This document shows, one piece after another, positions 6,713 to 38,281 of a DNA stretch of 64,000 nucleotides. A program made the translations under genes and the position numbers. The stretch is from positions 72,120 through 136,119 of the forward strand of contig JBAZCA010000001.1 of assembly GCA_041671125.1 (NCBI GenBank), in the 5' to 3' direction. Numbering within the stretch: the stretch's first letter is position 1; every line of letters begins with the position of its first letter. Source of the DNA: Patescibacteria group bacterium (lineage in GTDB: Bacteria; Patescibacteriota; Patescibacteriia; Patescibacteriales; JBAZCA01). The notes under the pieces were generated by a model that had not been told where the DNA came from, made no database searches, and saw nothing but the letters and a program-made list of their open reading frames with translations.

Positions 6713-6727
6713 AGTTAATCCAATTAC

Positions 6728-6814: not shown

Positions 6815-6971
6815 ATTGACTCATCACCTTAACAGGTTTAGCGGAAAAAGTAAAGAGGGCACCAAACAAAAAAACCTAATTATGAAAATTAGGCTAACAT
6901 TAAAATTATTTCCAATCTACAATTATTTATTAATTGAAGATTGTAGATTGAAGATTGTAGATTAATGCGGA

Positions 6972-7643: not shown

Positions 7644-7841
7644 ACATTACCGCAGACCTTTATTATTTATGGATTTATAGTATAATATTATCAGCTGTTA
7701 GTAAAGGACTCGCTTTTTGGTTGTTTTGGCGCCCATCATGTCTTTTAAATTAATGACAATAAAATTTTTAATTTTATAATTTTTAATTTTTAAATTAACT
7801 CATTAAAAATTACAAAATTAAAAATTAAAAATTCTGCATAA

Positions 7842-16754: not shown

Positions 16755-18008
16755 TTATTCCCTCCTTAACGCTTCCACCGGATCCAGGCGGGCGGCTTTC
16801 CGCGCCGGATACAGCCCAAAAGCTAATCCGAATAAAAGCGAAAAACCGATTGCCACCGGATAAGCCCTGATTGGCACGGCAAATTCCCAGGCCAGACCGA
16901 AATTGGCGGCGAGAAGCGAAATAAGATAGGAAGCGATTATGCCAAAGACAATACCGATAGCGGCTCCGGCCAGGGTGATGAGAATTGATTCAAATAAAAA
17001 CTGGGCCATGATGTCGGAGTACTTGGCGCCGATTGATTTCCGCAGGCCGATTTCCGGAGTCCGCTCCGAAACCATGACGTACATGATGTTCATTACTCCG
17101 ACACCGCCGACAACGAGCGAGATAGCGACAATGGCAAGAAGGAGAAGCGTAAGGGCGCCGGTTACGGTATCCAAAATTTTCATCATCTCAGCCATGGTAA
17201 TAACAGCGAAATCGTCGCGGTCCGGGTCGGTGATGTTGTGATTTTCACGGACGATAAGACGGATTTCATCGGCGGTTTCATCAGCCAGGTTAACGTCGTT
17301 TAATTCATGGATTATGTACATGACATGGTCAATGCCCATGATCTTTTTCTGCAAAGTCCTGATCGGGACGTAAACATAATCGTCAAAATTCATGAAAGCC
17401 ATGGCTCCGCGCTCCTCCATCACCCCGATCACCCGAAATTTCTGCTTCCTAATCCTTATTGACTGTCCAATCGGGTCGCTATCGCCGAATAATTTTTCCT
17501 TTATTTTCGCGCCGAGCACCGCCACTTCCATGAGCGAGCGATCTTCGGCGTCGGTAAAAAACCGCCCAATCCCGATTTCCGACTGGTCAATGTCTATATA
17601 AGTCGCGCTGGTTCCAAAGAGAAAGGATTTTTTCAGTTCATTGCCATAGCTTACCTGCTCCTGCCCGAGAATCCCGGCGTAGCTTCGCGCCACGTTCGGC
17701 AGTTTATCAATATCTTCCATATCCGAAATTTTCAGGGTAGTTACCTGGACGCCCTGAGCTTGAGCCATCCCTTGCTCGGTGTCCGAAGCCCGGCCGGTGG
17801 CAGTTTTTTTCGGCACCCGGAATTCGGTTTCAATAATGTTGGTGCCGAAAGCCTCAACCTGGCCGACAACCAGCCGCCGGATACCCTCGCCCGCGGAAAA
17901 AACAATTATCACCGAAGCGATGCCGATAACAATTCCCAAAATCGCCAACGCGGTCCGGCCTTTATTCGCCCTCAGAGCTTTTGAAGCGATTTTTAAGGAA
18001 GAAAACAT
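16755..18008 (-). CDS. ABC transporter permease, MacB/FtsX family (paralogue B)
   Basis: 417 aa. N-terminal TM, large periplasmic-type domain, then C-terminal FtsX-like 3-TM bundle (ERTPEIGLRKSIGAKYSDIMAQFLFES). Same length and architecture as 21840..23093. Confidence 0.85.
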   Translation of the reverse strand: MFSSLKIASKALRANKGRTALAILGIVIGIASVIIVFSAGEGIRRLVVGQVEAFGTNIIETEFRVPKKTATGRASDTEQGMAQAQGVQVTTLKISDMEDIDKLPNVARSYAGILGQEQVSYGNELKKSFLFGTSATYIDIDQSEIGIGRFFTDAEDRSLMEVAVLGAKIKEKLFGDSDPIGQSIRIRKQKFRVIGVMEERGAMAFMNFDDYVYVPIRTLQKKIMGIDHVMYIIHELNDVNLADETADEIRLIVRENHNITDPDRDDFAVITMAEMMKILDTVTGALTLLLLAIVAISLVVGGVGVMNIMYVMVSERTPEIGLRKSIGAKYSDIMAQFLFESILITLAGAAIGIVFGIIASYLISLLAANFGLAWEFAVPIRAYPVAIGFSLLFGLAFGLYPARKAARLDPVEALRRE

Positions 18009-18083
18009 ATTTAATCTTCAATTTTTCAATCTACAATCTTCAATTATAAAAGCTGATTAAAGATTATTTTATTGAATAATTGA

Positions 18084-19004
18084 TTACAGCGGACTTTTTA
18101 TTTTTTCTAAAACATTTCCCGCCACCTTGGTATAAATTTGCGTCGTTTCCAGTTTAGCATGACCGAGGAGTTCCTGGATATACCTGATGTCGGTACCATT
18201 TTCCAGTAAATGCGTGGCAAAGCTGTGGCGCAGGCAGTGACAGGAAGCATGTTTTTTCACGCCGGATTTTTTTAAGGCATTGGAAAAAACTTTCTGCGCT
18301 GATCGCTCGGTTAACCGGTTCTTTTTACTTCCAGTCTCCGCGCCGCCATTTTTCAATTTTTCATCCACCGTTCCGGAATTCGCGTTTAGCACCCGGCTTC
18401 TCTCGCTTTCAAAAACATAATCATCCGGATTTTTACGGCAGACGTATTTTTTCAGGACGCCAATCATCTTTTCCGACATAATAGTTATCCGGTCTTTCTT
18501 GCCTTTGCCGGCGCGGATAAAAAGCATCATCCGGTCAAAATCAAGATCTTTGACTTTCAGCTTAACCGCCTCGGACACTCTTAATCCGGAGGAGTATATC
18601 AGTCCGAGCAGGAGCTTATGCTTCACATTCTGTATTGTCCCCAGTATTTTTTTAACTTCCTCTTTACTTAAGACTTCCGGCAGTTTTTTCGGCGTTTTTG
18701 CCCGCGGAATATTCATGAAAAACCGTCGGCAAAGAATTTTTTCAAAATAGAATTTCAGGGCGCTATAGGCGGTGTTCAGGGTGGATGCTGATTTGCCGTC
18801 ATCCGCCATTTTTTCAAGATAACCGCGGATATTCTCCGAAGTTACGTTTTTCGGCCCGGAATTTGCAAATCTTAGCGCGTCCGTGATATAATACAGATAA
18901 GATTTGATGGTCTTTCCGCTGAAATTACGCAATTTCATTTCCTGCTTCAGCTTTAATATCGGATCCTGGCTTGGATAATAATTCTGTTTCATACTTTGCT
19001 TCAT
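18084..19004 (-). CDS. Tyrosine recombinase, integron-integrase-like
   Basis: Catalytic set LRVSE / HCLRHSFATHLL / LLGHAKLETTQIYTKV. IntI1-like LKVKDLDFDRMMLFIRAGKGKKDR. Extra ~20-30 aa (ERSRVLNANSGTVDEKLKNGGAETGSKKNR) relative to XerC/D. Divergent from the cassette array. Confidence 0.7.
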   Translation of the reverse strand: MKQSMKQNYYPSQDPILKLKQEMKLRNFSGKTIKSYLYYITDALRFANSGPKNVTSENIRGYLEKMADDGKSASTLNTAYSALKFYFEKILCRRFFMNIPRAKTPKKLPEVLSKEEVKKILGTIQNVKHKLLLGLIYSSGLRVSEAVKLKVKDLDFDRMMLFIRAGKGKKDRITIMSEKMIGVLKKYVCRKNPDDYVFESERSRVLNANSGTVDEKLKNGGAETGSKKNRLTERSAQKVFSNALKKSGVKKHASCHCLRHSFATHLLENGTDIRYIQELLGHAKLETTQIYTKVAGNVLEKIKSPL

Positions 19005-19082
19005 ATCCCTCTTATGATTTAAAGTATCTACCGAAATTCTAGCTTATTTTAAACAACCAGTCAACGAGTTCGGATATAAGGA

Positions 19083-19089
19083 GTTAGGC
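19083..19089 (+). other. attI-like core site GTTAGGC (GTTRRRY)
   Basis: Located 79 nt from the recombinase start, on the cassette strand. TTAGGC complements the R'' box GCCTAAC of the first attC. Confidence 0.6.
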
Positions 19090-19141
19090 AAAATTGTGCT
19101 GATTTTTATTCATTAATCCTTAGCAATTAAATTTAAAACGC

Positions 19142-19723
19142 ATGAAGAAACTAACATTAATTATTTTTTTGTCTATTTTTGCGGCTATCTTTTCGGGTTG
19201 TACACAAAAGAACACTGAAACTAAAAATCTATCAAAGACTGACCCAATACAACAAACTGATGAAAAGCAAACCGTAGGATGGGTAAATTTTACAAGCCCG
19301 CTAAACGATTATACTCTGCAACACCCAAAAAACTGGATTACTGGTTCAATGGGAAAGTTATATACTACAATTAACAGCCCTGAAAACGAACAAAATAAAA
19401 AGGAGGGTGAGCAATATATGGATGATATTACAATTACTTACTATGAGAGCGGATATAATTTTGCCGGCTATTCAACTTTTATTGATTGGTTAAATGACAC
19501 CAGCAATCCTGATCGCAATATTTTCAACGTCAATAAAATTTCATTTGCTGGAATAGACGCCTGGGATATGGTAATGACCGGAAGTAGAACAGGTTATGTT
19601 ATCATGGTTGAAAATAACGAACATCTTTACCAAATCGGATTTAACAACAGGGTGTCAAAACCAAAGTTAACTAACATAGACAAAAAAATAATTAATTCGT
19701 TTAAATTTATAAACCAACAATAA
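19142..19723 (+). CDS. Cassette 1: lipoprotein, function unknown
   Basis: Signal peptide plus lipobox IFSGC. 193 aa. Followed by attC-like site 1. Confidence 0.65.
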   Translation: MKKLTLIIFLSIFAAIFSGCTQKNTETKNLSKTDPIQQTDEKQTVGWVNFTSPLNDYTLQHPKNWITGSMGKLYTTINSPENEQNKKEGEQYMDDITITYYESGYNFAGYSTFIDWLNDTSNPDRNIFNVNKISFAGIDAWDMVMTGSRTGYVIMVENNEHLYQIGFNNRVSKPKLTNIDKKIINSFKFINQQ

Positions 19724-19806
19724 AAATCAGCACAACTCAAGGGGGCGCTGCGCTTTCATTTTGGCTTTAATTTGATAAAATAATAATGAGGCTATAATGA
19801 ACCCTC

Positions 19807-19904
19807 GCCTAACAAGTGATAACCGGAAAATGCCTCAGCTCGGCATTTTCCCAAATTTGTTTTCCCTTCGGTCAAACGAACTTCGGTTATCGCTAACGTT
19901 ATAC
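19807..19904 (+). other. attC-like site 1 (98 bp)
   Basis: R'' GCCTAAC (19807-19813) and R' GTTATAC (19898-19904). Inner arms gataaccgga (19818-27) and ttcggttatc (19882-91). Central hairpin aaaatgcc/ggcatttt. Confidence 0.65.
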
Positions 19905-19939
19905 GATATGACAAAAATCCCTTTATTAGATAGATTTGC

Positions 19940-19969
19940 TTGAAAAAAGCATGGTTCTTGAGTTATAAT
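19940..19969 (+). promoter_or_regulatory. Candidate cassette-internal promoter
   Basis: TTGAAA (19940-45), 18-nt spacer, TATAAT (19964-69). Lies 20 nt upstream of the 19990 ATG. Confidence 0.45.
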
Positions 19970-19989
19970 ACAACAATTAACTAAAATAT

Positions 19990-20694
19990 ATGTTTGAAAA
20001 ATTATTAGGAAAAACAGGCTCCGCAAAAGAAGCACAAAAAGGAAATGATTTTGGTTTTGAATCTTCAATCAAGGACACGCGACAAGAAATAGACGACGTA
20101 ATAGATCCAAAAGCAACGAAACTTATCATAGAAAGAGAAGATGGTACTGCTGAAAATAGTTCATCTAAACAACGCTTCGATGTAAAGCTTTTGAATCTTG
20201 GACGAAGTCAAATTAATAAACCTTATAGCTATTATCGTTTGTCAAATTTGTCAAGAACAGATAACATTCAAGTTTTAATGAGAACTGATCAGGGTTTAAA
20301 AAATATTCGTCTTCCTGAACAGATGTTATCAAATATTGCAAGGTTCATCAGGGAAGATTCAAAACCAAGAGAAGAAAGATTTGATTGTGCTTCTTTTGCT
20401 CATCTTGTAAACGACATACCCTATGAATTTGGTAATTATCAAGCTAAAAATTGGGATATGCGTTTATTAAGCGACGAAAATAACCTTAAACCAGGTGATA
20501 CAATTGCCATAGCAAATACAGACAATCCTAATAATTTTTCAAACGGAGACATAACTCATTTCGGAATCTATTTAGGAGATAGTCTTTATCTTTCAAAGTT
20601 TGGAAATAAAGGAAAGTTAATCGTTGCGAATCTTGAAGAAATGAAAAAAGGATTTGGTGGAGACTATTTTTTTCAAGCAAATCCAAAAAAATAA
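19990..20694 (+). CDS. Cassette 2: NlpC/P60-like (papain-fold) cysteine peptidase/amidase family protein
   Basis: Cys motif RFDCASFAHLV and His motif GDITHFGIYLGDSLYLSKFG, in the order and spacing typical of NlpC/P60. No signal peptide. Confidence 0.55.
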   Translation: MFEKLLGKTGSAKEAQKGNDFGFESSIKDTRQEIDDVIDPKATKLIIEREDGTAENSSSKQRFDVKLLNLGRSQINKPYSYYRLSNLSRTDNIQVLMRTDQGLKNIRLPEQMLSNIARFIREDSKPREERFDCASFAHLVNDIPYEFGNYQAKNWDMRLLSDENNLKPGDTIAIANTDNPNNFSNGDITHFGIYLGDSLYLSKFGNKGKLIVANLEEMKKGFGGDYFFQANPKK

Positions 20695-20714
20695 GGAAGG
20701 ATTTTTGTCACATC

Positions 20715-20859
20715 GTATAACAGCGTGTATCTGGTTCGGCAGATTTGACGCAATTAGATTCAATAGGAATGTCAAATCAGCCTCTCCCAAATTTCGCAAA
20801 AAACAATTAGATTTTCAAAGGAATTTTTGCGAAACTTCAGATACACGCGAACGTTAGAC
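20715..20859 (+). other. attC-like site 2 (145 bp)
   Basis: R'' GTATAAC (20715-21) and R' GTTAGAC (20853-59). Perfect 11-bp inner arms gcgtgtatctg (20723-33) and cagatacacgc (20838-48). Additional internal stems. Confidence 0.7.
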
Positions 20860-20989
20860 AAAATGTGCTCGCTCCGCTCGCGTAATATTTCCTCTATATT
20901 TTTGAAAAGAATTTTTGGCAATTTTGCGGGTCGATAAATCAATGTCTCATAAAAAATAATCTAAGTAAATAATTAAATAAATTATATTT

Positions 20990-21208
20990 ATGCAAAAATC
21001 AAAAATATCAGGAATTTTAATGATTTCCTCGGCTATAATTCTCATAGTCTTAATAATTGGGTATGCTGTTTTATTTTCTGTTTTTGGAATCAATTCCGGT
21101 GGATCATTTTTAATGATCACCCCCCTACTTATAATCGCTATTGCCCTAATTATAGCTCTATCTTTTCTTTTACGCGCAGGAATTAAACAAATAAAAAATA
21201 AAAAATAA
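20990..21208 (+). CDS. Cassette 3: small two-TM membrane protein
   Basis: 72 aa, two hydrophobic stretches. This is the only ORF in the cassette orientation. Confidence 0.4.
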   Translation: MQKSKISGILMISSAIILIVLIIGYAVLFSVFGINSGGSFLMITPLLIIAIALIIALSFLLRAGIKQIKNKK

Positions 21209-21275
21209 TTTAACATTGCCTCATTATGAAGAATTGCCAAAAATTTTTTATTAGTACAAAATTTTTAGTTTCATC

Positions 21276-21473
21276 GCCTAACAACGCATATCTGGCTACA
21301 GGAAATTGACTTATAGATATTAATAAGGAGTGTCAATTTCCCTCCGCCCAAATTTTCATCCCTTAGTTTTGATGAAGGTTTAGGTAGAGATAATTAAACA
21401 AAGCATTGTCTGAAACAAAAGTTTATCCCGCTAAGTCGGGATGAAAACTTCAGATGATACGTAAACGTTAGAC
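21276..21473 (+). other. attC-like site 3 (198 bp, imperfect)
   Basis: R'' GCCTAAC (21276-82) and R' GTTAGAC (21467-73). Inner arms gcatatctg / cagatgatacg pair with a bulged G. Its 3' end (21448-21497) is nearly identical to that of site 2 (20835-20883). Confidence 0.5.
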
Positions 21474-21580
21474 AAAATGTGCTCGCTCCGCTCGCGATTT
21501 TCCTGAACGCGCGCGGGTGCTCCTCGTCCGGCTCTTTCGCTCGCTGCGCCTGCCTGCCGGCAGGCAGGCTCGCACACATC

Positions 21581-21587
21581 GTCTAAC
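21581..21587 (+). other. Orphan R'' box GTCTAAC of an eroded fourth cassette
   Basis: Exact complement of GTTAGAC at 21467-73. No partner R' box before tRNA-Arg. Confidence 0.4.
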
Positions 21588-21676
21588 TCGGGATATCCGA
21601 AATGCCCTCCAGCCGGTCGCTTCCTGCCTATCGGCAGGCAGGGAACCTGCAAAATAGAGTCTAGATGAAAAAATTG

Positions 21677-21748
21677 TGTCCCCGGCAGGAATCGAACCTG
21701 CATCACAAGTTCCGGAAACTTGCGTCCTATCCATTGAACGACGGAGAC
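21677..21748 (-). tRNA. tRNA-Arg (anticodon CCG)
   Basis: GTCTCCG...CGGGGACA acceptor stem. Anticodon arm CAAGT-TTCCGGA-ACTTG. T-arm GCAGGTTCGATTCCTGC. No encoded CCA. Confidence 0.9.
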
Positions 21749-21839
21749 ATACGAATTTTCAATTGCCAATTTACGATTTTCAATTAATAGTATGACGAAT
21801 TTAGCGGAAAAATGAATTTTTCACGCTTATCCGTGCTAC

Positions 21840-23093
21840 TCATTCATACCGCAAAGCTTCAATCGGGTCAAGCCTGCCGGCTTTATCCGCCGGATAAAGC
21901 CCAAAAATAAGGCCGACAAAACCGGAAACGCCGACCGCGAGCAGGATTGAAATAATTGAAATACTAAATTCCCATTCATAACCCAAAGCGCCTGCGACTA
22001 AGGCGACGAGAAAAGCAATCAGGGTTCCAAAAATTATGCCGGCAATCCCGCCGATCAGGGTTATGGCCATGGATTCAACGAGGAACTGGCTCAGGATATT
22101 CGCGCGCGTCGCTCCCACCGCTTTCCTTAAACCGATTTCGCGCGTCCGCTCCGAAACCGAAACCAGCATGATGTTCATGATGCCGATACCGCCGACTAAA
22201 AGCGAGATGGCCGCCATGGCCGCTAAAAAATATTTTAAAGCGTCGGTAACCGTTGTGATCGTGTCCAGCGCTTCGGAAGCGCTCTGCACGGTAAAATCGT
22301 CCTGGTCGCCCGAAAGGTCGGTTATGTTATGCTGTTCGCGCAAGGTTTTTTCTATATCGGCGATGACCCGGCCGATATTTTCTTCGCTATCCGCTTTGGC
22401 TCGGGCCATGGTAATATGGTTAATGCCGAGAATTAATTTTTGGGCGGTTGAAATCGGGATTAATATCTGGTCATCGTAATTCTGGAAAGCCACGGTTCCC
22501 TTTTCAGCCATCACGCCGATCACTTCAAAGCCGTGCTTTTTTATTTTTATCTTATGGCCGATCGCTTCGCTCTGGCCGAATAGATCCTCTTTTACTTTGG
22601 ATCCCAAAACCGCGACCCGGGCAAGACTCCTTTCTTCGTCTTCAGTAAAAAACCGCCCTTCTTCAACATTACTGGATTCAATTTCCGTGTAACTCGCTGT
22701 TGTTCCGTTCAGGTTCGTATCCAGCTCGTTATTTTCCCAGACAACGGTTTCCACGCCTTTGACGTAAGCGGCCGCGTTAAGAAGATTGGGGACGTTATTT
22801 TTTTTCTTTAGCGCCTCTATATCGTCGTAAGTAAGGGTAGTAATTACTATTCCCATAACCGAGGCCGGCGGGCCTTTGTCGTCCGACTTCCCCGGCAGGA
22901 TGCCGATCAAGTCGCTCCCGATGCCTTTAATCTGCGCGAGAATCAGGCTCTGCGCTCCGGCGCCGACCGCCATGATAATAATTACCGCCGCCACGCCGAT
23001 TATAATCCCGAGCATGGTCAAAAAGCTCCTTGTCTTATTAGCAAGGAGCGCGCGGAATGAATTTTTAAAGCTTTGGGTAAAAAAAGTAAGCAT
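21840..23093 (-). CDS. ABC transporter permease, MacB/FtsX family (paralogue A)
   Basis: 417 aa with the same architecture as 16755..18008 (ERTREIGLRKAVGATRANILSQFLVES). Confidence 0.85.
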   Translation of the reverse strand: MLTFFTQSFKNSFRALLANKTRSFLTMLGIIIGVAAVIIIMAVGAGAQSLILAQIKGIGSDLIGILPGKSDDKGPPASVMGIVITTLTYDDIEALKKKNNVPNLLNAAAYVKGVETVVWENNELDTNLNGTTASYTEIESSNVEEGRFFTEDEERSLARVAVLGSKVKEDLFGQSEAIGHKIKIKKHGFEVIGVMAEKGTVAFQNYDDQILIPISTAQKLILGINHITMARAKADSEENIGRVIADIEKTLREQHNITDLSGDQDDFTVQSASEALDTITTVTDALKYFLAAMAAISLLVGGIGIMNIMLVSVSERTREIGLRKAVGATRANILSQFLVESMAITLIGGIAGIIFGTLIAFLVALVAGALGYEWEFSISIISILLAVGVSGFVGLIFGLYPADKAGRLDPIEALRYE

Positions 23094-27621: not shown

Positions 27622-27657
27622 TTTAGTGTCTCTTCTTGATTTTCGTTTCAATATCTG

Positions 27658-27740
27658 TGGGCCGGGGTGGACTCGAACCACCGAAGGCCGAAGCCAGCAG
27701 ATTTACAGTCTGCCCCAGTTGACCGCTTTGGTACCGACCC
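27658..27740 (-). tRNA. tRNA-Tyr (anticodon GUA), class II with long variable arm
   Basis: GGGTCGG...CCGGCCCA acceptor stem. Anticodon loop CTGTAAA. Variable arm TGGCTTCGGCCTTC. T-arm GGTGGTTCGAGTCCACC. Confidence 0.92.
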
Positions 27741-29888: not shown

Positions 29889-30368
29889 CTATTTTGATAA
29901 AAACCTCGGAAGAGGGTTTTTTTGTTTCAGGGACTTTTTGTATTCTACAATAATCCGGTAATGGTCAAAAGCAAAATCATCTTTCGGCGGAAGATCGTTT
30001 AATTTGCGCCACATAACTTCCGAAACTTCATAATCCGGCGCGCCGGTCTTTTTTAACGCTTCCAATAAAAAAACAAATGCTATATTCTGCCGACCGGCTT
30101 CGTTCCGCTCGGGAGCGTCAACAATGAATAATAATTTTTGAACTTCTGCCTGATAACCGGTTTCCTCCATAACTTCCCTTTTAACCGCCTCTTCCACGCT
30201 CTCGTCATGCTCAATAAAACCGCCGGGCAGGCAATATTTTCCGCCCTGGAACATCTCCGGCGACCGCTTAACGATTAGAATTTCGTCCCCGCGCGTTAAA
30301 ATCGCGTCAACGACAGCGTGCCTCGCGTTATTAACTTCATGTCCGTTTTCAAATTTGCAAGTAATCAT
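29889..30368 (-). CDS. NUDIX hydrolase
   Basis: Nudix box GGKYCLPGGFIEHDESVEEAVKREVMEETG. I prefer ATG 30368 (MITCKF...) to the track start 30470, which overlaps the upstream gene by 86 nt. Confidence 0.85.
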   Translation of the reverse strand: MITCKFENGHEVNNARHAVVDAILTRGDEILIVKRSPEMFQGGKYCLPGGFIEHDESVEEAVKREVMEETGYQAEVQKLLFIVDAPERNEAGRQNIAFVFLLEALKKTGAPDYEVSEVMWRKLNDLPPKDDFAFDHYRIIVEYKKSLKQKNPLPRFLSK

Positions 30369-30384
30369 AAATTTACCATCCTCC

Positions 30385-32034
30385 TCATCCGACTTCGGCT
30401 CGCTCTTCAAAATTAAATCTTCCTCCTCTTGTCTCCGTTGCCGAACCCATAAAGGGTTTGTCCAGCTCAATCATTTCTATCTTTCTCTTCGCGTTATTCA
30501 TAAGAGCGGAAAAAACATATTTTGTAAAACGTTTTCGCGCGTTAAACTTTGGAGTATAGGCGTACATGCATCGCTTTATCACCGCTTCCATTGCCATCAT
30601 GTCATGCGAGTAAAAGGTTAGTTCACTATTTCTTGCTGACCACTCGGTCGCCATTATGCCAATAAAATAAATAATTTTTTCTTCGGCCAGAGTATTGCCG
30701 CTCTTGGCCAGTGTTATTAATTCCCGGTACATTTTTTCCCTCAATTCGTCGTCGCCGGCATCATCATATATTAATAGATAAAGACTGTTCCTGTATTTTT
30801 CAAGAATATTACTCACATCCTCGGGAAAATTACTTAAAGCCAATCTGGGCTTAAACTCTTCATCCAGCGACTCCCTTATTTTTTCCCATCCCGCATTCCC
30901 GTTTTCGCGCTTTGCGACATTATTTCTTAAGTATCTATAAACGTTAGGAGCTTCAATCTCAATATAACTAAGGGAAAAAATCGGAGGATTTTTTTTCTTT
31001 AATACCCTGCTTAATTCAGTCATTGCCTCGCTAAATGTGTATTCACGCTCTTCAGCCGAACCACTGCCCTCATTCTCGTTTATAAACTGCGGCTGCCATC
31101 TTGATTGCCAGTCCCGGGGAAGGATGTCAATTAGCTTTCTCCAATGGATTTTATCAAACTTCCTCGGAAGATATAACCGCCCGAAATCATAAACTTTTCT
31201 CGCGTTATGATATATCCAGCCGGGGCCGAAACTCGGCGGGTTAATTTCCCTTAATTTCTCCTCCAGTAACTCGCCGTTTCCGTACAAATCCCGGTGATGC
31301 CGCGGCTTATAGTCCCATAGCGCGGCCAAATCAGAAGGTAAAAAATCAGGTAATATCCACCAAGCGATATCGCCGTTCGACAAACGCAACTTCTTTTCAA
31401 AAAAAGCTTTGGTCGTGGTATTATGCTTCACCCAAGATGGGTTTATAACCGACGGATTTTCCTCTCTGGCTTTCTTTATAACCTCGTTAACGCAAGTCTC
31501 AAAAGTCCTGTTCCTGTCAATGTTTATTTCTTTATTATGAAACTTTGACTCCCATTCCGATCCCAAAAGAGAAACAAAGTCCGAGTAATCTCTTTTCCCG
31601 TCGATTTTTTCAAAATATCTGTTCTTAATTTGATTAGCCAAGTTTTTATCAAACTTTTTCACCCACGCCCAACCGAAAGATTCCGGTTTTTCCCTTTCTA
31701 AAAGCGCTTTAACCTTTTCCGCGCGTTCTTGCCTGACTTTCTCCTTATCTTTAGCCGCCTTAATATGGGAAAATCTTGACTCCCAAGGCTCGCCTAAAAT
31801 ACTGATAAACCCCAGATAGTCCCTTTGGCCGCCAACAGTTTCATAATAACTTTTTTTTATCCTACCGGCCAATTTATCATCAAATCCTTCCACCCAGCCT
31901 AAACTAAACTTTTCCGGGTTTTCAGCCTCCAGCAAACCAAGCAGTAAGCGCGCGTCGCGTAATTTTATTGCTTCCTTGTCCGGTTTGTCTTCTGTCGGCG
32001 CGCCAATCGCTTCAACCGATCTTATGTTATACAT
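30385..32034 (-). CDS. Hypothetical protein: five ~55-aa Trp-rich repeats plus a sigma70-region-2-like C-terminal segment
   Basis: Repeats such as ENPEKFSLGWVEGFDDKLAGRIKKSYYE...EPWESRF and EKPESFGWAWVKKFDKNLANQIKNRYFE...SEWESKF. Tail DMMAMEAVIKRCMYAYTPKFNARKRFTKYVFSALMNNAKRKI. ATG 32034 preferred over TTG 32088. Confidence 0.6.
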   Translation of the reverse strand: MYNIRSVEAIGAPTEDKPDKEAIKLRDARLLLGLLEAENPEKFSLGWVEGFDDKLAGRIKKSYYETVGGQRDYLGFISILGEPWESRFSHIKAAKDKEKVRQERAEKVKALLEREKPESFGWAWVKKFDKNLANQIKNRYFEKIDGKRDYSDFVSLLGSEWESKFHNKEINIDRNRTFETCVNEVIKKAREENPSVINPSWVKHNTTTKAFFEKKLRLSNGDIAWWILPDFLPSDLAALWDYKPRHHRDLYGNGELLEEKLREINPPSFGPGWIYHNARKVYDFGRLYLPRKFDKIHWRKLIDILPRDWQSRWQPQFINENEGSGSAEEREYTFSEAMTELSRVLKKKNPPIFSLSYIEIEAPNVYRYLRNNVAKRENGNAGWEKIRESLDEEFKPRLALSNFPEDVSNILEKYRNSLYLLIYDDAGDDELREKMYRELITLAKSGNTLAEEKIIYFIGIMATEWSARNSELTFYSHDMMAMEAVIKRCMYAYTPKFNARKRFTKYVFSALMNNAKRKIEMIELDKPFMGSATETRGGRFNFEERAEVG

Positions 32035-32095
32035 AAAGATATTTATTCTGAAATAAATGCCGACCCTAAAAATTTTACCCCGAAACAAACATCGT

Positions 32096-32175
32096 CGGAG
32101 GGTTTTTTGTTTCAGGGACTTTTTGTATTCTAAAATAATCCGGTAATGGTCAAAGGCGAATTCTTCGGCCGGAAG
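32096..32175 (-). pseudogene. Orphan 3' fragment of a NUDIX gene
   Basis: About 88% identical to 29907-29993. Translates to LPAEEFAFDHYRIILEYKKSLKQK, versus LPPKDDFAFDHYRIIVEYKKSLKQK in the intact gene. Confidence 0.75.
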
Positions 32176-32190
32176 TAGGTGATCATAAAT

Positions 32191-33924
32191 CTACCATCCG
32201 CCACCTCCGCCTCCGCCGCCTCCGCCGCCGGCTCCTCCCGCTCCCCCGCCCCCGGACGGAGCCGAAGTGTTAGCGGCAATGGCTGATGACAGGCTTTCTA
32301 TTGACTTATTAAAACTATCGGCGTCAAAAGCGCCGATATGCCCGGCGTACCAGGCCGGAGCGTATGTATTAAAATATTTTTCACCGTAAATTTCTTTCAT
32401 TTTCTTTATCCAGAGCCCGGTGATGCCGAAGACAATGGCGTAAGGGAGAAATTTTTCAAAGATATTTTCTTTTTCATAAAATTCGGCCCGGTGCTTGTCA
32501 ACGGTTTCCATGAACAGCTTAAAGCCTTTTATTTTCCAGTTTGCTTCCGCCCCCTCAGGCGTCCGCTTTGGCATGATGACGGCAAAAATAAAAATAATCA
32601 AGGCCGAAGAAAAGAGACCGGCCGCGAAAAAAATCATCTGAAAAATTCCGGAAAAAACCGCGGCCATAACCAGAAAAACGCCTAAGATAATAAATAGAAC
32701 CTGAAAACGCGATCCCGAAGCCGCGATTAATCCTTTATCGCTGAGAAGTTTTTTTGAGCCGCTTTTTATTCCGGCCAGGCTTTTATAAAATTCATTTTTT
32801 AAATCCGAAAGTTTCACGCTGTCGCCGCCCTTAAACACATTTTCCAGGATGGCTTTCTGCGGCGCGTTTAAGCCGGCCTCAATCCGGGTGTCGGGCTTTT
32901 TTGTCAGTTCATAATCCCTAGAGCTGAACATCAACACTTTCTTTTCAATTTCTTTTACGCTCAGAAGTCCTTTGGCCGCCAGGTTGATTATTTCCGCGGT
33001 TACGAGTTTATTGGAAAAAATTCCGTTAGTCATGAGCATTCCGGTTTCCAAAGGCGTTAAATTTTCCGGCGCCTCGTATTCAGGAATCACGGTCTTATCC
33101 ACCCGCGGATCCCGGCCGTATTTTCGCCAAAAATAATAGCCGACAAAAAAGACAAAAAGCGGAATCAAAGGCCATAGATATTTCCCGTAAATTTCCAGGA
33201 AGCTAAATTCGTAGGGCGTAAAAATGTTTTTAGGAAAAATCACTGAAGCCGTAATTCCCTCTCCGATTTTAAGCGTTCCCTTTGAGCGGAATTCAAGCGT
33301 ATCAGGAGCGATCCGTTGGTAAGCCGCTAAATCTTTAGCTTTGCTTTTGAGCGCTCCGGCGTAATAATCAACCTTTATATCGGCTTCGTCCGCTCCGGAC
33401 GGTAAGATAATTTTCGCCTGAAAATTGTCAATTTCCAAGTCCCAAAAATTACCGCTTAAATTCCAGTACAGCTCGTCAAAATCATCATTAAACCGGATGG
33501 CGTTTTTTACCCGATATTTTATCCGGTAATAATTCACGCCGCTCACTTCAATATCCGGGTCGCCGATTTTCCAGGTTATGGTTTTATCAAAGAAATTCTT
33601 TGTCTCCTTGTATTTCAATTTATGGCCTTCAAAATCGGTAATGCCGATTAATTCCACCGGAGTTTTTACGGCGGTTATTTTTCCATCCGCTGATTCAATT
33701 CTTACTGCATCGGGGAGAATCCGGAATATGCCGTGCTTATCCGAAGCGTTGCCGCAATCGGCAATGATGTTTTCCGTGATGTCCAGGCTGGAATCTTTGT
33801 TAACGATAATTTCCGACTGAAAATCCTTTATATACCAATCAGTAACATTCTCCCGAGCCCGGCCGGTAAGAGGCGCGAACAGCGGGATGAAAATAAAAAC
33901 CAATAAAATGAATTTTTTAAACAT
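32191..33924 (-). CDS. DUF2207-like membrane protein with C-terminal poly-Gly tail
   Basis: Signal peptide, large extracytoplasmic domain, several TMs, and tail GGGGAGGAGGGGGGGGGGGW, which I associate with DUF2207 proteins. Confidence 0.6.
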   Translation of the reverse strand: MFKKFILLVFIFIPLFAPLTGRARENVTDWYIKDFQSEIIVNKDSSLDITENIIADCGNASDKHGIFRILPDAVRIESADGKITAVKTPVELIGITDFEGHKLKYKETKNFFDKTITWKIGDPDIEVSGVNYYRIKYRVKNAIRFNDDFDELYWNLSGNFWDLEIDNFQAKIILPSGADEADIKVDYYAGALKSKAKDLAAYQRIAPDTLEFRSKGTLKIGEGITASVIFPKNIFTPYEFSFLEIYGKYLWPLIPLFVFFVGYYFWRKYGRDPRVDKTVIPEYEAPENLTPLETGMLMTNGIFSNKLVTAEIINLAAKGLLSVKEIEKKVLMFSSRDYELTKKPDTRIEAGLNAPQKAILENVFKGGDSVKLSDLKNEFYKSLAGIKSGSKKLLSDKGLIAASGSRFQVLFIILGVFLVMAAVFSGIFQMIFFAAGLFSSALIIFIFAVIMPKRTPEGAEANWKIKGFKLFMETVDKHRAEFYEKENIFEKFLPYAIVFGITGLWIKKMKEIYGEKYFNTYAPAWYAGHIGAFDADSFNKSIESLSSAIAANTSAPSGGGGAGGAGGGGGGGGGGGW

Positions 33925-35941: not shown

Positions 35942-36763
35942 CTAAAAAGATAACTTGTAGAATATATTTATAGAAGTTCCAAAGGGCTCAATTATTTTAA
36001 GAAATCTCATATCCTTTAGATCTTTATTAATTGTTGCTCTTGGAACCCCTTTTAGAACTTTCATGCAGGCTCTAATGTTAATGGAGCCCTTTATCAAAAG
36101 GCTATTTATTATTTTGATCTGTCGTTCATTTAAGGAACTAAACTTATGCCCCAATAATGTCACTTCAAAACTATTAATGGTATTTCTGAAAAGCGGGGGT
36201 TGCAGATTCCATTGATGCATTTTATCAAAAACAATATCAATTCCTCTTCCATATTCCTCTAAATAATCCAGATCCTTCAAGCGAGCGGCAATTATCGGAT
36301 TTCTGCTGAATTGAGCTTCTTTGATATTATCAATGGTCACTCCGGGAGGTAAGCACCCAGGATTCTTTATTTCTATCCTATTTTCAAAAATGTTAATCTG
36401 CGGATAAGTTTCGATGATTTTGTAATCTCTATGGATAATCGCATTGGCTATCAATTCTCTTATCGCCTCTTCTGGGTACTCATATTTTTCAACCCTTTTT
36501 GTTCCTTCAATAAAAGCCATTTTACGAATATTCTTTAAAATAAATTTATAGCTTTCATCAATTTGGTTATCGAGTGTTCCTTTAATATCAAGTTTATCTA
36601 TGATATCGCTTGAGGTATTGTTGCCCGAATATTTTACACACCTAATTGTATATCTTTCAAAAGGGTAGCGACTTAGGGGGTCTTTTTTTGAAAAGAGAAG
36701 ATAACCTGCAACCGTAGGCCTAAATTCGTGATCAAATTTTGAGATTATTCCTAAATTATTCAA
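35942..36763 (-). CDS. HATPase_c_4-like / wHTH C-terminal part of a split AlbA_2-family (Schlafen-like) protein
   Basis: HRDYKIIETYPQINIFENRIEIKNPGCLPPG...RNPIIAARLKDLDYLEEYGRGID. Only a TTG start. Begins mid-domain (PTVAGYLLF). Confidence 0.6.
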   Translation of the reverse strand: MNNLGIISKFDHEFRPTVAGYLLFSKKDPLSRYPFERYTIRCVKYSGNNTSSDIIDKLDIKGTLDNQIDESYKFILKNIRKMAFIEGTKRVEKYEYPEEAIRELIANAIIHRDYKIIETYPQINIFENRIEIKNPGCLPPGVTIDNIKEAQFSRNPIIAARLKDLDYLEEYGRGIDIVFDKMHQWNLQPPLFRNTINSFEVTLLGHKFSSLNERQIKIINSLLIKGSINIRACMKVLKGVPRATINKDLKDMRFLKIIEPFGTSINIFYKLSF

Positions 36764-37356
36764 AAGTTTCTTTTCAATGTCTTTCGAGTTAGCTCCCCTT
36801 TTTTCTGACTTTCACTCTTTTCCAACAACAATCTTATTCTTTTAACAGATAAGTCATTAATTGAAGTATTGCTTGCTTCAGATAAATCAAAAAGGAATTC
36901 CTTGGATGAAGCAACGTATGTCCTAAATTCATTGTCAGTAATTTTACGACTTGAATTTCCTTCCCTTATATATGCCCCATTAGGCAATCCAACCGGTTTA
37001 AAAAAACAAGGCATATAATCTTTCGGGCATTCAGGCACATAAACTGCCAAAATGGTTACTTTTGAAGAATATGGTATGACAAATACATCTGGACGAAGCA
37101 CAAAACTCATTTTTTTATTAAAATACTCACCCAATTTGGTTTGCATCCCATCAATGTTTTCACAACCCACTACTTCAAAATTTTGAGTTACCCCAAACAC
37201 CACAATCCCTCCTCCTCTTCGATTTGCAAAGGCCGAAATTGTTCGCCAAATATCATTCGGAATATTGGTGCGTGATGTCTTAAATTCTAAATCAGGCAAT
37301 TCGCTACAAAGACCTATTCCTAATTTAATTTTTTTCACTATATCTTTTTCTGTCAT
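36760..37356 (-). CDS. AlbA_2 (Schlafen-type DNA/RNA-binding) N-terminal part of the split gene
   Basis: ELPDLEFKTS...IWRTISAFANRRGGGIVVFGV. The stop overlaps the next ORF by 4 nt, which is consistent with a frameshift. Confidence 0.6.
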   Translation of the reverse strand: MTEKDIVKKIKLGIGLCSELPDLEFKTSRTNIPNDIWRTISAFANRRGGGIVVFGVTQNFEVVGCENIDGMQTKLGEYFNKKMSFVLRPDVFVIPYSSKVTILAVYVPECPKDYMPCFFKPVGLPNGAYIREGNSSRKITDNEFRTYVASSKEFLFDLSEASNTSINDLSVKRIRLLLEKSESQKKGELTRKTLKRNF

Positions 37357-37545
37357 AAGAGTTATTTAAAGCTACTAATAATACTCATGTTTTCGTTTGC
37401 AAACAAAAATTGACATCAAACCGGCCTTTCTTGTCAATTTTTATTTACATGATTTTTTTAATATACTTTTTATGCTAAAATTAGAACATTTTATTTAATT
37501 TTTCTTGTCATTGCTTACCATTTTCCCGGCGTCAGGAAAATGGTC

Positions 37546-37830
37546 TTTATAACTTTACCCCAATTTTCCCCAATTGCTTCTTTATCTCCTCATTCATCTT
37601 CCCCTCCTCCTCCATCTGCGCCTTTAACTCTTTAGTTAAAACCGCCATTTTTTTTCAAAAGGTATGCCGTCGTCTTCTTCGTCCGGAATACCGACGTATC
37701 GGCCGGGAGTCATAATAAAATTATGCTTTTCAATTTCTTCCATCTTAGCCGACTTGCAAAGACCTTTTTTAACCTGAGTTCCGCTTATATTACTAATTTT
37801 GCTCCATATCGGCCATGAAGTCAACGGCAA
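37546..37830 (-). pseudogene. hsdM: 3' remnant of a type I R-M methyltransferase gene (hsdM), frameshifted
   Basis: CKSAKMEEIEKHNFIMTPGRYVGIPDEEDDGIPFEKK. After a -1 shift in an A8 run it continues MAVLTKELKAQMEEEGKMNEEIKKQLGKIG, a typical HsdM C-terminus. There is no N-terminal catalytic part. Confidence 0.6.
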
Positions 37831-38281
37831 ACCCTCTCTCCCTTGCCCTTTCCTCCCGTTATGCTAAAATTGAATCAATAAGTTAATAACACAATTTAAT
37901 AACCGCACGCAAATGCTTTACAAAGCCCTCATCAGGCCTTGCATTTGCGTGCGGAACTGCTCTTCGGAGCTGTTAAAACTGGTGAGGGCCTTTTAGTTGG
38001 GCAATCGCGAATTATGTTTCGGGAATTTTCTCTCCGAACTTATTCGCTGGAAGATCCCGGCCAGGCGATTCACCGGAGAAAATTTATGAAGTTAAGTATG
38101 ATGGCCTGCCAAATCATCTCCGACAGCCTGGCGCTCTATTTTTTAGAGGCAGGAAAACTGAATCTTGCGAATAAAAAGACCGAAATTTTAAGGACTGTTT
38201 CCGAATTTAACGATTACATCCACTCTATCCGGGAGGAAAATAAAAAAGAGGCTTGAACTGGCCATGAAGTCAACCAGAACA

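What the first reader, a model, noticed from the sequence alone, without database searches (positions are those of the whole stretch)
30385..32034. Novel repeat protein with a sigma70-region-2-like tail and no region 4
The 549-aa product has five degenerate ~55-aa repeats. Each starts (E/K/I)NP(E/P/S)xF...W(V/I) and ends in a W/E-rich motif (EPWESRF, SEWESKF, AALWDYK, RDWQSRW, AGWEKIR). The C-terminal segment is ...AEEKIIYFIGIMATEWSARNSELTFYSHDMMAMEAVIKRCMYAYTPKFNARKRFTKYVFSALMNNAKRKI. Its spacing resembles sigma70 region 2 (DLIQEG..GL.KAV.KFD....kFSTYA.WWIRQAI). There is no region 4 HTH and no TM or signal sequence. One possible reading is a sigma-mimic or core-RNAP-binding factor tethered to a repeat scaffold. 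This is speculative.
Basis: inference. Interest (0 to 1): 0.55.

Follow-up and report, generated by a model that had tools for sequence, protein, structure and literature searches.

The report
Sigma-derived protein with winged-helix repeats
This gene from a tiny uncultured bacterium (Patescibacteria) encodes an unannotated protein whose tail resembles the RNA-polymerase-docking part of a sigma factor, but the usual DNA-reading end is missing and five novel repeats sit in front, hinting at an unusual way of steering transcription.

Summary
Window 30385-32034 (minus strand) encodes a 549-aa protein with five real ~58-aa repeats, then a ~150-aa C-terminal module. It belongs to an unannotated family: 115 representative clusters plus 62 short forms. 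All named members are Patescibacteria, and no Pfam, NCBIfam, PHROGs, PADLOC or PDB sequence match was found.

The C-terminal module is sigma-derived. A confident AlphaFold model retrieves mainly sigma factors from two structure libraries, each hit individually non-significant. It superposes on sigmaE region 2 (TM 0.61, 3.4 A). A profile comparison with ECF sigma2 aligns 77 columns in the expected register (P 0.003; 0/200 shuffles). An ECF sigma2 HMM ranks family genes 5 of the top 8 among 1,023 ORFs. The tail (S-L-D-x-P plus acidic residues) matches sigma region 3.2 (P 1e-4; 0/150 shuffles).

No sigma3 or sigma4 exists in any member, and no sigma4-like gene was found within about 4-10 kb in nine loci screened. 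The repeats fold with a winged-helix-like helix/strand order and have no significant known relative.

Best reading: a sigma2 + sigma3.2 protein that docks on RNA polymerase and uses the repeat array for targeting in place of sigma4. Polymerase and DNA binding are inferred, not shown. It is a new variant of a known kind.

The parts
30385..32034 (-). Complete ORF: 549 aa from the ATG plus stop codon. It is a member of an unannotated Patescibacteria protein family.
31768..31944 (-). Repeat 1 (aa 31-89), a winged-helix-like W-rich repeat
   Evidence: Repeat HMM i-E 2.7e-13; AlphaFold model of R1-R2 with pLDDT 93
31537..31713 (-). Repeat 2 (aa 108-166)
   Evidence: Repeat HMM i-E 9.9e-17; R1-R2 shuffle z=30.6; AlphaFold model
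31312..31482 (-). Repeat 3 (aa 185-241), the most degenerate copy
   Evidence: Repeat HMM i-E 5.3e-10; R3-R4 z=11.5
31093..31266 (-). Repeat 4 (aa 257-314), the copy closest to the family consensus
   Evidence: Repeat HMM i-E 2.6e-18
30841..31014 (-). Repeat 5 (aa 341-398). It is equivalent to the single repeat kept by the ~220-aa short forms of the family.
   Evidence: Repeat HMM i-E 2.7e-15; short homologues align to query aa 334-530
30751..30840 (-). Conserved two-helix lead-in to the C-terminal module (aa 399-428; family motif Y-x-N/D-x-x-E-V...K-L-Y-T-F)
   Evidence: Column conservation in A3; helices at model residues 10-27
30469..30750 (-). Sigma2-like helical domain (aa 429-522). It carries the motifs LA(Q/K)KGNxxA, an invariant-like W, RCIY, and F..YL on the last helix.
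   Evidence: AlphaFold pLDDT 87.4; Foldseek hits to sigma factors; hhalign against ECF sigma2 P=0.0029 with 0/200 shuffles; HMM enrichment
30403..30468 (-). Sigma region 3.2-like tail (aa 523-544, ELDKPFMGSATETRGGRFNFEE; family consensus S-L-D-x-P followed by acidic residues)
   Evidence: hhalign against 44 real group-1 sigma region 3.2 segments: P=1.2e-4, 0/150 shuffles reach the score
29889..30410 (-). NUDIX hydrolase gene directly downstream on the same strand. As called it overlaps the ORF end by 26 nt, so the two are probably co-transcribed.
   Evidence: a NUDIX gene also directly follows the homologue P0116
32082..32215 (-). Remnant of a second NUDIX gene copy just upstream of the ORF: the start codon region joined to the 3' end, with about 367 nt deleted internally. 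It forms direct repeats with 29896-29981 and 30361-30397.

Best explanation
The gene encodes a member of a previously undescribed protein family whose named members are all Patescibacteria. The family is derived from the sigma70 family.

Anatomy. The C-terminal ~150 aa keep a sigma2 domain of the ECF type. That is the part of a sigma factor that docks on the beta-prime clamp helices and handles the -10 element. Directly after it comes a sigma region 3.2-like acidic segment, the 'finger' or linker that in sigma factors enters the active-site cleft and RNA exit path. The sigma3 and sigma4 domains are absent. The N-terminus carries 1-12 tandem ~58-aa tryptophan-rich repeats (five here) with the helix/strand order of a winged helix.

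Most likely mechanism. The protein occupies the sigma2 site on RNA polymerase core as a sigma factor does. Its repeat array supplies the nucleic-acid targeting that sigma4 normally gives. It would then act as an unconventional promoter-specificity (sigma-like) factor, probably with its own regulon.

Shown: the repeats, the family, the sigma2 and sigma3.2 similarity, the lack of sigma4, a chromosomal setting, and Patescibacteria as the only named source.

Inferred: polymerase binding, DNA binding by the repeats, and sigma activity.
For: Repeats and family:
- Five repeats were confirmed.
- The family has 115 representative clusters plus 62 short forms.
- The C-terminal module is detected in 93 of the 115 representatives and is always at the C-terminus.

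Sigma2 similarity of the C-terminal module:
- The AlphaFold model has pLDDT 87.4.
- Foldseek against PDB: sigma factors recur among the top hits. The only superpositions below 4 A rmsd are E. coli sigmaE region 2 (4lup_C; TM 0.61 normalised to the target, 3.4 A, 98 columns) and sigma32 (8hkc_E; 3.5 A).
- Foldseek against viral models: 8 of the top 13 hits are annotated sigma factors, with probability 0.47-0.97 and the best superpositions 2.9-3.7 A over about 100 columns.
- hhalign against 10 ECF sigma2 sequences, all verified as Pfam Sigma70_r2: score 22.1, P=0.0029, 77 columns, family positions 42-121 aligned to ECF 5-84. Column-shuffled controls give mean 9.8 and maximum 17.2, and 0 of 200 reach the score.
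- An ECF sigma2 HMM ranks family genes as 5 of the top 8 among 1,023 ORFs (hypergeometric 1.5e-9).

Tail and conserved residues:
- Tail against real sigma region 3.2 segments: P=1.2e-4, and 0 of 150 shuffles reach the score.
- The nearly invariant F and Y-L on the last helix align to the F and W/Y-L of sigma region 2.3/2.4. A conserved acidic residue opens the 2.2-equivalent helix.

Repeats as possible nucleic-acid binders:
- The repeat model has pLDDT 93 and the order a1-b1-a2-a3-b2-b3.
- Conserved basic columns lie at the end of helix 3, the start of the hairpin and the WQxRW motif.
- The repeat region has pI 9.1.

Precedent: T4 gp55 works as a sigma2-only promoter-specificity factor that binds the clamp helices through acidic residues (PMC7892883).
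Against: - No Pfam Sigma70_r2 hit reaches threshold in any of the 115 members. Only 2 of 59 C-termini hit it, at E about 0.1.
- A family profile finds no sigma chain in the PDB by sequence.
- There is no alignment to group 1-3 region 2.
- Every single Foldseek E-value is above 0.3.
- The glutamine that is invariant in ECF region 2.2, a position associated with core binding (from my own knowledge), is not conserved in the family.
- The winged-helix assignment of the repeats rests on secondary-structure order and non-significant Foldseek hits (E>2). The best sequence-level hint is an EF-hand at E 0.06.
- No conserved regulon or neighbour was seen in 12 loci.
- Polymerase binding and DNA binding were not and could not be tested here.
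Confidence: 0.45

Rival explanations
1. Sigma competitor or decoy. The sigma2 + 3.2 module binds RNA polymerase core but cannot open promoters. The protein would act as a repressor or tether that blocks the housekeeping sigma, or that parks polymerase at sites bound by the repeats.
For: It rests on the same sigma2 and sigma3.2 evidence as the best explanation. The ECF-invariant region 2.2 glutamine and most region 2.3 residues are not conserved, which fits a protein with altered activity.
Against: The aromatic F and Y-L positions of the -10-handling helix are nearly invariant. That conservation is not expected for a pure plug. T4 gp55 shows that a sigma2-only protein can be a true specificity factor.
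Confidence: 0.2
2. Half of a split sigma factor. The protein supplies sigma2 and sigma3.2, and a separately encoded sigma4-type protein supplies -35 recognition, as in the B. subtilis SigO-RsoA two-subunit sigma.
For: Two-subunit sigma factors exist (cited in PMC7826278). The family uniformly lacks sigma4.
Against: No sigma4-like ORF was found in the sequence held for nine family loci (4-10 kb on each side) or in the 64-kb window; the best HMM E-value was 0.17. No neighbour is conserved across 12 loci. The protein already carries its own candidate DNA-binding array.
Confidence: 0.1
3. An exapted sigma2 fold with no polymerase role. The protein would be a DNA- or RNA-binding factor of variable or mobile genomic regions (a defence-island regulator or a mobile-element protein), with the helical C-terminal domain serving as a dimerisation or ssDNA-binding module.
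For: Several homologues sit next to defence or mobile genes: SMODS+SAVED directly upstream, HerA/NurA with a methylase and a serine recombinase, Fic with HsdM, and a transposase with toxin-antitoxin genes. The window gene is flanked by direct repeats and a NUDIX gene remnant. One member scored against the homing-endonuclease-associated repeat family.
Against: Nothing was found in PADLOC or PHROGs. A pattern covering about a third of the family found no members in IMG/VR viral contigs. Other loci are plain housekeeping neighbourhoods. Retention of a region 3.2-like tail after sigma2 is hard to explain without polymerase.
Confidence: 0.15
4. The sigma resemblance is convergent or due to chance. 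On this view the C-terminal module is just a small helical bundle of a novel family.
For: No sequence-only search reaches significance. Foldseek E-values are 0.3-6. Small helical bundles can superpose by chance.
Against: Four independent lines point to sigma, and in the correct N-to-C order. These are two structure libraries, hhalign with shuffle, reversal and sigma4 controls, HMM rank enrichment at P=1.5e-9, and the separate region 3.2 match.
Confidence: 0.08

Closest known systems
ECF (group 4) sigma70-family sigma factors, e.g. E. coli sigmaE/RpoE
   Same: The helical sigma2 domain has the same helix order and register: K-G-D/N..A..L helix, D-led 2.2 helix, short loop, then F..W/Y-L helix. 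E. coli sigmaE region 2 (PDB 4lup) gives one of the two close structural superpositions, and ECF sigma2 is the only significant profile match. As in ECFs, the sigma3 domain is missing and an acidic linker follows sigma2.
   Different: There is no sigma4 at all, although sigma4 is a defining part of ECFs; the ECF catalogue required both Pfam sigma2 and sigma4 (PMC7826278). The Pfam sigma2 threshold is never reached. The invariant region 2.2 glutamine is lost. A long N-terminal repeat array is present, whereas N-terminal extensions in ECFs are rare and short.
Bacteriophage T4 gp55 (late-gene promoter specificity factor)
   Same: It is a diverged sigma70-family protein consisting essentially of a sigma2 homology domain without sigma4. 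It still binds the clamp helices and recognises a -10-like element (PMC7892883).
   Different: gp55 is a small phage protein with a helix-loop-helix add-on and a C-terminal sliding-clamp-binding motif, and it depends on gp33 and gp45. The present family is cellular, no member was found in viral contigs by a pattern covering about a third of the family, it has N-terminal repeats, and gp55 was not among the top 50 Foldseek PDB hits listed.
[quoted passage not shown]
   Same: Sigma functions are distributed in a non-canonical way, and one polypeptide carries only region 2-like sequence.
   Different: RsoA is small and is co-encoded with its partner. Here no partner gene is conserved or detectable nearby, and the protein has its own repeat array.
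Winged-helix DNA-binding domains (e.g. the Rex N-terminal domain, MCM and ScpB winged helices) and tandem DNA-reading repeats such as the homing-endonuclease-associated repeat (Pfam PF18780)
   Same: Each repeat is predicted as a1-b1-a2-a3-hairpin, and the weak Foldseek hits are to proteins I know to contain winged-helix domains. The repeats occur in tandem, vary in number and are mildly basic.
   Different: There is no significant sequence or structure match to any such family. The repeats have two extra short helices with a W-x-x-R-W motif. No individual repeat scored against PF18780.

Membership tests
sigma70 family | Sequence match to Pfam Sigma70_r2 (PF04542) at the curated threshold | tested here: not met
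   0 of 115 members at E<=0.01. 2 of 59 C-terminal domains at E about 0.12. The window protein has none even at E<=10.
sigma70 family | Sigma2 fold: a helical domain that superposes on solved sigma2 structures | tested here: met
   The pLDDT-87 model superposes on 4lup_C (sigmaE region 2; TM 0.61 normalised to the target, 3.4 A rmsd, 98 columns) and on sigma32 (3.5 A). 8 of the top 13 viral-library hits are sigma factors, with probability up to 0.97. Individual E-values are all above 0.3.
sigma70 family | Profile-level homology to region 2 in the canonical register | tested here: met
   hhalign against ECF sigma2: P=0.0029 over 77 columns; 0/200 column shuffles reach the score, and the reversed control scores 9.0. 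HMM rank enrichment is 1.5e-9. There is no signal against a group 1-3 alignment.
sigma70 family | Region 3.2 / sigma2-sigma4 linker following region 2 | tested here: met
   Family tail against 44 real region 3.2 segments: P=1.2e-4 over 24 columns, and 0/150 shuffles reach the score.
sigma70 family | Region 4 (helix-turn-helix for the -35 element and the beta-flap) | tested here: not met
   There is no Pfam sigma4 hit in any member. hhalign of both the C-terminal module and the repeats against sigma4 stays within the shuffle range. The listed C-terminal matches end near the protein's C-terminus, leaving too few residues for a sigma4 domain.
sigma70 family | Conserved core-binding residues of region 2.2 and aromatic residues of region 2.3/2.4 | tested here: inconclusive
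   F and Y-L on the last helix are nearly invariant and align to the F and W/Y-L of sigma. An acidic residue opens the 2.2-like helix. The ECF-invariant glutamine is not conserved.
sigma70 family | Binds RNA polymerase core and confers promoter-specific initiation | not testable with these tools
   This needs biochemistry or a complex prediction. No multimer prediction tool was available.
ECF (group 4) sigma factors | A two-domain sigma2 + sigma4 architecture without sigma3 | tested here: not met
   A sigma2-like domain is present and sigma3 is absent, but sigma4 is absent too. The ECF definition is taken from PMC7826278.
T4 gp55-like late sigma | Phage-encoded sigma2-only protein with a C-terminal sliding-clamp-binding motif | tested here: not met
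   No PHROGs hit. No family member was found in IMG/VR by a pattern covering about 32% of the family. The gene lies on contigs up to 495 kb with housekeeping neighbours. gp55 is not among the top 50 Foldseek PDB hits listed. A clamp-binding motif was not tested.
Two-subunit sigma (SigO-RsoA type) | Co-encoded partner protein carrying the missing sigma regions | tested here: not met
   No sigma4-like ORF was found in the sequence held for nine loci or in the window (best E 0.17). No neighbour is conserved in 12 loci. A distant partner gene cannot be excluded.
Winged helix-turn-helix domains | a1-b1-a2-a3-b2-b3 topology with a recognition helix and a wing | tested here: inconclusive
   The DSSP order of the pLDDT-93 model fits this topology. 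Foldseek hits to Rex, MCM and ScpAB have E of 2.4-9.5 and probability <=0.2. Basic columns sit at the end of helix 3 and the start of the wing. The best sequence hint is instead an EF-hand (E 0.06).
Homing-endonuclease-associated repeat (Pfam PF18780) | Sequence match of the repeats to the family model | tested here: not met
   One of 115 full-length members scored 4.4e-9, and that hit was not localised. None of 96 individual repeats scored at E<=1 among the 25 of 26 matched families that were listed.

The most novel reading that the evidence does not exclude
A new class of bacterial promoter-specificity factor. It would be a sigma in which sigma4 has been replaced by an N-terminal, copy-number-variable array of winged-helix-like repeats (1-12 units). 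Upstream promoter DNA would then be read modularly by the array, while a retained sigma2 + sigma3.2 core handles polymerase docking and DNA opening. That would be a previously unknown solution to promoter recognition, and possibly a major regulatory device of the reduced Patescibacteria genomes.
Probability: 0.22. Interest if true: 0.85.

Novelty: new variant of a known kind. Interest (0 to 1): 0.64.

Why it matters
Sigma factors are defined by a sigma2 domain working together with sigma4. The exceptions I know of are T4 gp55 and the split SigO-RsoA factor, and both taught new principles of promoter recognition.

Here a family of at least about 175 sequence clusters, whose named members all come from the poorly understood Patescibacteria (CPR), keeps sigma2 and the region 3.2 finger. 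It drops sigma4 and adds a variable tandem array of a novel repeat. The family is invisible to Pfam and NCBIfam, and to the ECF catalogue, which required sigma4.

If it binds polymerase, it gives a testable handle on gene regulation in organisms that cannot be grown alone. It would also offer a natural example of re-engineered promoter targeting. If it does not, it shows a sigma2 fold recruited for another job.

Tried and rejected
Searches that found nothing:
- Direct searches of the whole protein against Pfam, NCBIfam and PDB sequences.
- Profiles of the repeats and of the C-terminal domain against PDB sequences. They gave only chance-level hits: transferrin-binding protein, GH81, and the calpain EF-hand at E 0.06.
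- The word-indexed protein search with the single sequence, which found only the protein itself. With the repeat profile it found one 52-aa fragment.
- hhalign against group 1-3 region 2. It gave only a 9-column match in a register that does not fit the downstream spacing, so I rejected it.
- The idea that the repeats are sigma4-derived: hhalign stayed within the shuffle range.

Failed or limited scans:
- My DNA-pattern scan of genome contigs had a spacer one codon too long through my own typing error. The taxonomic range therefore rests only on names in the protein database.
- A corrected pattern on viral contigs gave 17 chance hits and no family member.

Other checks:
- PHROGs and PADLOC gave nothing.
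- Looking for alternative domain partners of the repeats in members that lack the C-terminal module gave no Pfam domains.
- The member that hit the homing-endonuclease repeat family could not be identified.
- NUDIX as a conserved partner: it lies directly downstream in only 2 of 12 loci, and the two NUDIX proteins are only 33% identical.
- Literature searches for a Patescibacteria or CPR sigma of this kind found nothing.
Full report
**The observation.** The ORF lies on the minus strand at 30385-32034. It has an ATG start and encodes 549 aa; a TTG-extended reading reaches 32088. Public gene calls use the 549-aa form. The identical protein is deposited as a 'hypothetical protein' of a Patescibacteria group MAG.

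The five repeats are real.
- Local alignment scores against 300 shuffles give z=30.6 for R1-R2 and z=11.5 for R3-R4. Most other pairs give z=3.4-6.5, and only R1-R3 and R2-R3 are weak.
- A repeat HMM iterated on homologues finds exactly five copies, at aa 31-89, 108-166, 185-241, 257-314 and 341-398, with domain E-values from 5e-10 to 3e-18.
R2 begins E-K-P rather than NP. The 'end motif' quoted for R5 is really the mid-repeat D-W position.

There is no hydrophobic segment (maximum 19-aa Kyte-Doolittle mean 0.83) and no signal-like N-terminus.

**A family exists but is unannotated.** Pfam, NCBIfam and PDB sequence searches of the protein return nothing significant. The word-indexed search finds only the protein itself.

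An exhaustive phmmer search over 1.84 billion cluster representatives finds 115 proteins at E<=1e-3, and 15 of them at E<=1e-30. A profile of the C-terminal module finds 62 further proteins, nearly all new and nearly all about 200-240 aa. Every named one is a 'hypothetical protein' of Candidatus Paceibacterota or the Patescibacteria group, and contigs reach 495 kb.

The architecture is constant.
- There are 1-12 copies of the ~58-aa repeat: 331 copies in 111 proteins. The consensus is LNKLLEEENPEKFSPSWIKKNDPSLYRFLRKNLRTEDGKIDWDRIISKLPEKWQERWK.
- A ~150-aa module follows. It is detected in 93 of the 115 representatives and always sits at the C-terminus.
- Many long forms have an extra N-terminal domain that the window protein lacks.
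- No member has a curated Pfam domain, and nothing matches PHROGs or PADLOC.

**The C-terminal module is sigma2-like.** An AlphaFold2 model built with 59 homologous C-termini is confident (pLDDT 87.4, pTM 0.77). It has seven helices followed by a disordered tail.

- *Structure, PDB.* Foldseek gives no individually significant hit (best E 1.3), but sigma factors recur among the top 50. The only superpositions below 4 A rmsd are E. coli sigmaE region 2 bound to -10 DNA (4lup_C; TM 0.61 normalised to the 94-residue target, 3.4 A, 98 columns) and sigma32 (8hkc_E; 3.5 A, 89 columns). Designed bundles and cytochromes align at more than 10 A.
- *Structure, viral models.* In the BFVD library, ranks 2-6, 9, 12 and 13 are annotated sigma factors. 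Their Foldseek probabilities are 0.47-0.97, and the best superpositions are 2.9-3.7 A over about 100 columns.
- *Profile, single sequence.* hhalign of the family alignment against RpoE aligns family positions 46-121 to RpoE 9-83, which spans the Pfam Sigma70_r2 match of RpoE (residues 25-92), at P=0.009.
Against this alignment hhalign scores 22.1 (P=0.0029) over 77 columns in the same register.
- *Controls.* Two hundred column-shuffled controls give mean 9.8, sd 1.8 and maximum 17.2, and the reversed alignment scores 9.0. The same family profile scores only 13.1 against sigma4.
- *Reverse test.* An HMM of the ECF sigma2 alignment was searched against all 1,023 ORFs of the window and nine homologue loci. 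Family genes are 5 of the top 8 (hypergeometric P=1.5e-9).
- *Register.* The family motif K-G-N..A...L maps onto the ECF K-G-D..AF..L helix, the R-C-I-Y helix onto region 2.2, and the nearly invariant F..Y-L onto the F..W-L of region 2.3/2.4.

Limits of this evidence:
- Pfam Sigma70_r2 is hit by only 2 of 59 C-termini, at E about 0.1.
- A family profile finds no sigma chain in the PDB by sequence.
- Group 1-3 region 2 gives no usable alignment.
- The glutamine invariant in ECF region 2.2 is not conserved.

**The tail is sigma region 3.2-like.** After the last helix the family has a conserved S-L-D-x-P motif followed by Gly/acidic residues and an acidic end. In the window protein this is ELDKPFMGSATETRGGRFNFEE, aa 523-544.

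I extracted 44 distinct real group-1 sigma sequences from 80 IMG/VR loci. Those loci were found with a region 2 alignment, and some matched my typed RpoD region 2 at 100% identity. hhalign of the family tail against their region 3.2 segment gives P=1.2e-4 over 24 columns, pairing sLD.p with iSLe.pvG.deds.lgdfIeD. None of 150 column shuffles reaches the score (mean 5.0, maximum 9.6).

So two sigma segments occur in the correct order, with no sigma3 domain between them. That is the ECF layout, and the protein stops where sigma4 would begin.

**No sigma4 anywhere.**
- No Pfam sigma4 hit occurs in any member.
- The listed C-terminal matches end near the protein's C-terminus, leaving too few residues for a sigma4 domain.
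- Neither the repeats nor the C-terminal module resemble a sigma4 alignment (scores 10.9 and 13.1; the shuffle maximum, measured for the repeat comparison, is 13.8).
- No sigma4-like ORF lies in the sequence held for nine family loci (4-10 kb on each side) or in the window (best E 0.17).
- The window holds no canonical sigma gene and no paralogue.

**The repeats.** An AlphaFold2 model of R1-R2, built with 60 repeat pairs, is very confident (pLDDT 93.0). Each unit reads helix (13 residues), one-residue strand, helix (7), helix (10), beta-hairpin, then two short helices. A long helix links it to the next unit.

- This helix/strand order is that of a winged helix-turn-helix.
- Foldseek against the PDB returns only weak hits (E 2.4-9.5). 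They go to proteins I know to contain winged-helix domains: the Rex repressor, MCM subunits and ScpAB.
- No Pfam family recurs among 96 individual repeats.
- The best PDB sequence hint is a calpain EF-hand at E 0.06.
- Conserved basic columns lie at the end of helix 3, at the start of the hairpin (76% K/R) and in the closing W-Q-x-R-W motif (86% K/R).
- The repeat region has pI 9.1, against 5.95 for the sigma2-like part.

Nucleic-acid binding by the repeats is therefore plausible but remains inferred.

**Context.** The gene lies in an ordinary chromosomal neighbourhood. A DUF2207 membrane protein gene is upstream. A NUDIX gene is downstream on the same strand and overlaps the ORF end as called. 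Fpg, a tRNA-Tyr gene, RelA/SpoT and HisRS lie further out.

Across 12 loci no neighbour is conserved.
- NUDIX directly follows the gene in only two loci, and those two NUDIX proteins are only 33% identical.
- Several homologues sit among defence or mobile genes: SMODS+SAVED, HerA/NurA with a methylase and a recombinase, Fic with HsdM, and a transposase with toxin-antitoxin genes.
- Others sit among biosynthetic or housekeeping genes.
- A DNA pattern covering about 32% of the family finds no member in IMG/VR viral contigs.

The window gene is bracketed by direct repeats. 29915-29981 matches 32100-32166 (67 nt, 91%), and 30361-30397 matches 32179-32215 (81%). The upstream copy is the remnant of a second NUDIX gene: its start codon region is fused to its 3' end. 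The locus has therefore been rearranged or the gene inserted there. I could not resolve how.

**Mechanism and rivals.** I consider one reading most likely (about 0.45). The sigma2-like domain docks on the beta-prime clamp helices. The region 3.2-like acidic tail enters the cleft as in sigma factors. The N-terminal repeat array supplies targeting in place of sigma4. The protein would then be an unconventional sigma-like specificity factor.

T4 gp55 is a precedent. It is a sigma2-only protein that binds the clamp helices through acidic residues and recognises a -10-like element (PMC7892883).

Polymerase binding, DNA binding and initiation are all inferred. The rivals are:
- a non-initiating competitor or tether (0.2);
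- half of a split sigma with an unlinked partner (0.1);
- an exapted fold with no polymerase role in mobile or defence contexts (0.15);
- chance resemblance (0.08).

**Comparison with what is known, and novelty.** The protein works like, and probably descends from, the sigma70 family, most like the ECF group. It fails the formal membership tests on two counts. It does not reach the Pfam sigma2 threshold and it lacks sigma4.

The large ECF re-classification required both Pfam sigma2 and sigma4, and describes N-terminal extensions as rare and short (PMC7826278). That catalogue could not have captured this family. Literature searches for a Patescibacteria or CPR sigma of this kind found nothing.

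I rate it a new variant of a known kind: a sigma2 + 3.2 core with a novel repeat array, in a family whose named members are all Patescibacteria.

**What failed.** The taxonomic range therefore rests on database names only. The last word-indexed protein search, run with the repeat profile, was unproductive.

Noticed in passing
window 32082-32215 vs 29896-29981 and 30361-30397: Direct repeats bracket the gene: 67 nt at 91%, 27 nt at 78% and 37 nt at 81%. The upstream copy is a remnant of a second NUDIX gene. It consists of the DUF2207 stop, the NUDIX start 'ATGATCACC', and then directly the NUDIX 3' end (FAFDHYRIILEYKKSLKQK), with about 367 nt deleted internally. This suggests a duplication or insertion event at this locus. 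The last ~13 nt of the 549-aa ORF resemble the DUF2207 3' end.
   Followed up: partly
window 27657-27740: ARAGORN calls an 84-nt tRNA-Tyr(GTA) on the minus strand. Rfam's tRNA model did not report it at gathering threshold, although it reported the other two tRNAs.
   Followed up: no
window 35942-37356 (minus strand): Two adjacent, 4-nt-overlapping ORFs carry Schlafen/AlbA_2 (198 aa) and HATPase_c_4 (273 aa). From memory, these domains are usually fused in one protein. The ORFs lie in the lowest-GC stretch of the window (0.353 at 36001-38000, against about 0.45-0.5 elsewhere). This may be a split gene or an island.
   Followed up: no
window 32191-33924 (minus strand): The DUF2207 membrane protein ends in a long glycine-rich run (…APSGGGGAGGAGGGGGGGGGGGW).
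   Followed up: no
L173 2451-7325 (homologue P0171): A short-form family gene starts 20 nt after a SAVED + SMODS/AGS-C (CBASS-like) gene pair. It is followed 13 nt later by an unannotated 552-aa ORF, all on one strand with LexA upstream. This may be an operon linking the family to a defence system.
   Followed up: no
protein P0016 (951 aa), residues 593-951: One homologue has seven repeats but a different ~360-aa C-terminal region. It does not match the family C-terminal HMM and gives only faint sigma2/sigma4 HMM scores (E 0.005-0.05 against a single sequence). The repeat array may combine with other modules.
   Followed up: partly
proteins P0005, P0006, P0008, P0009, P0011, P0012, P0016, P0018 (N-terminal ~90 aa): Many long-form members share a conserved N-terminal domain ahead of the repeats (…L..LP……WC.NKVD……IRN.V.KE…). 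The window protein lacks it. No Pfam match was found.
   Followed up: no
HTH_16 also gave weak hits (E 0.07) to 2 of 59 family C-termini.
   Followed up: no
window 6001-8000 and 18001-22000: GC drops to 0.37-0.38 in these stretches, against about 0.45-0.54 in most other stretches. They may be islands and were not examined.
   Followed up: no
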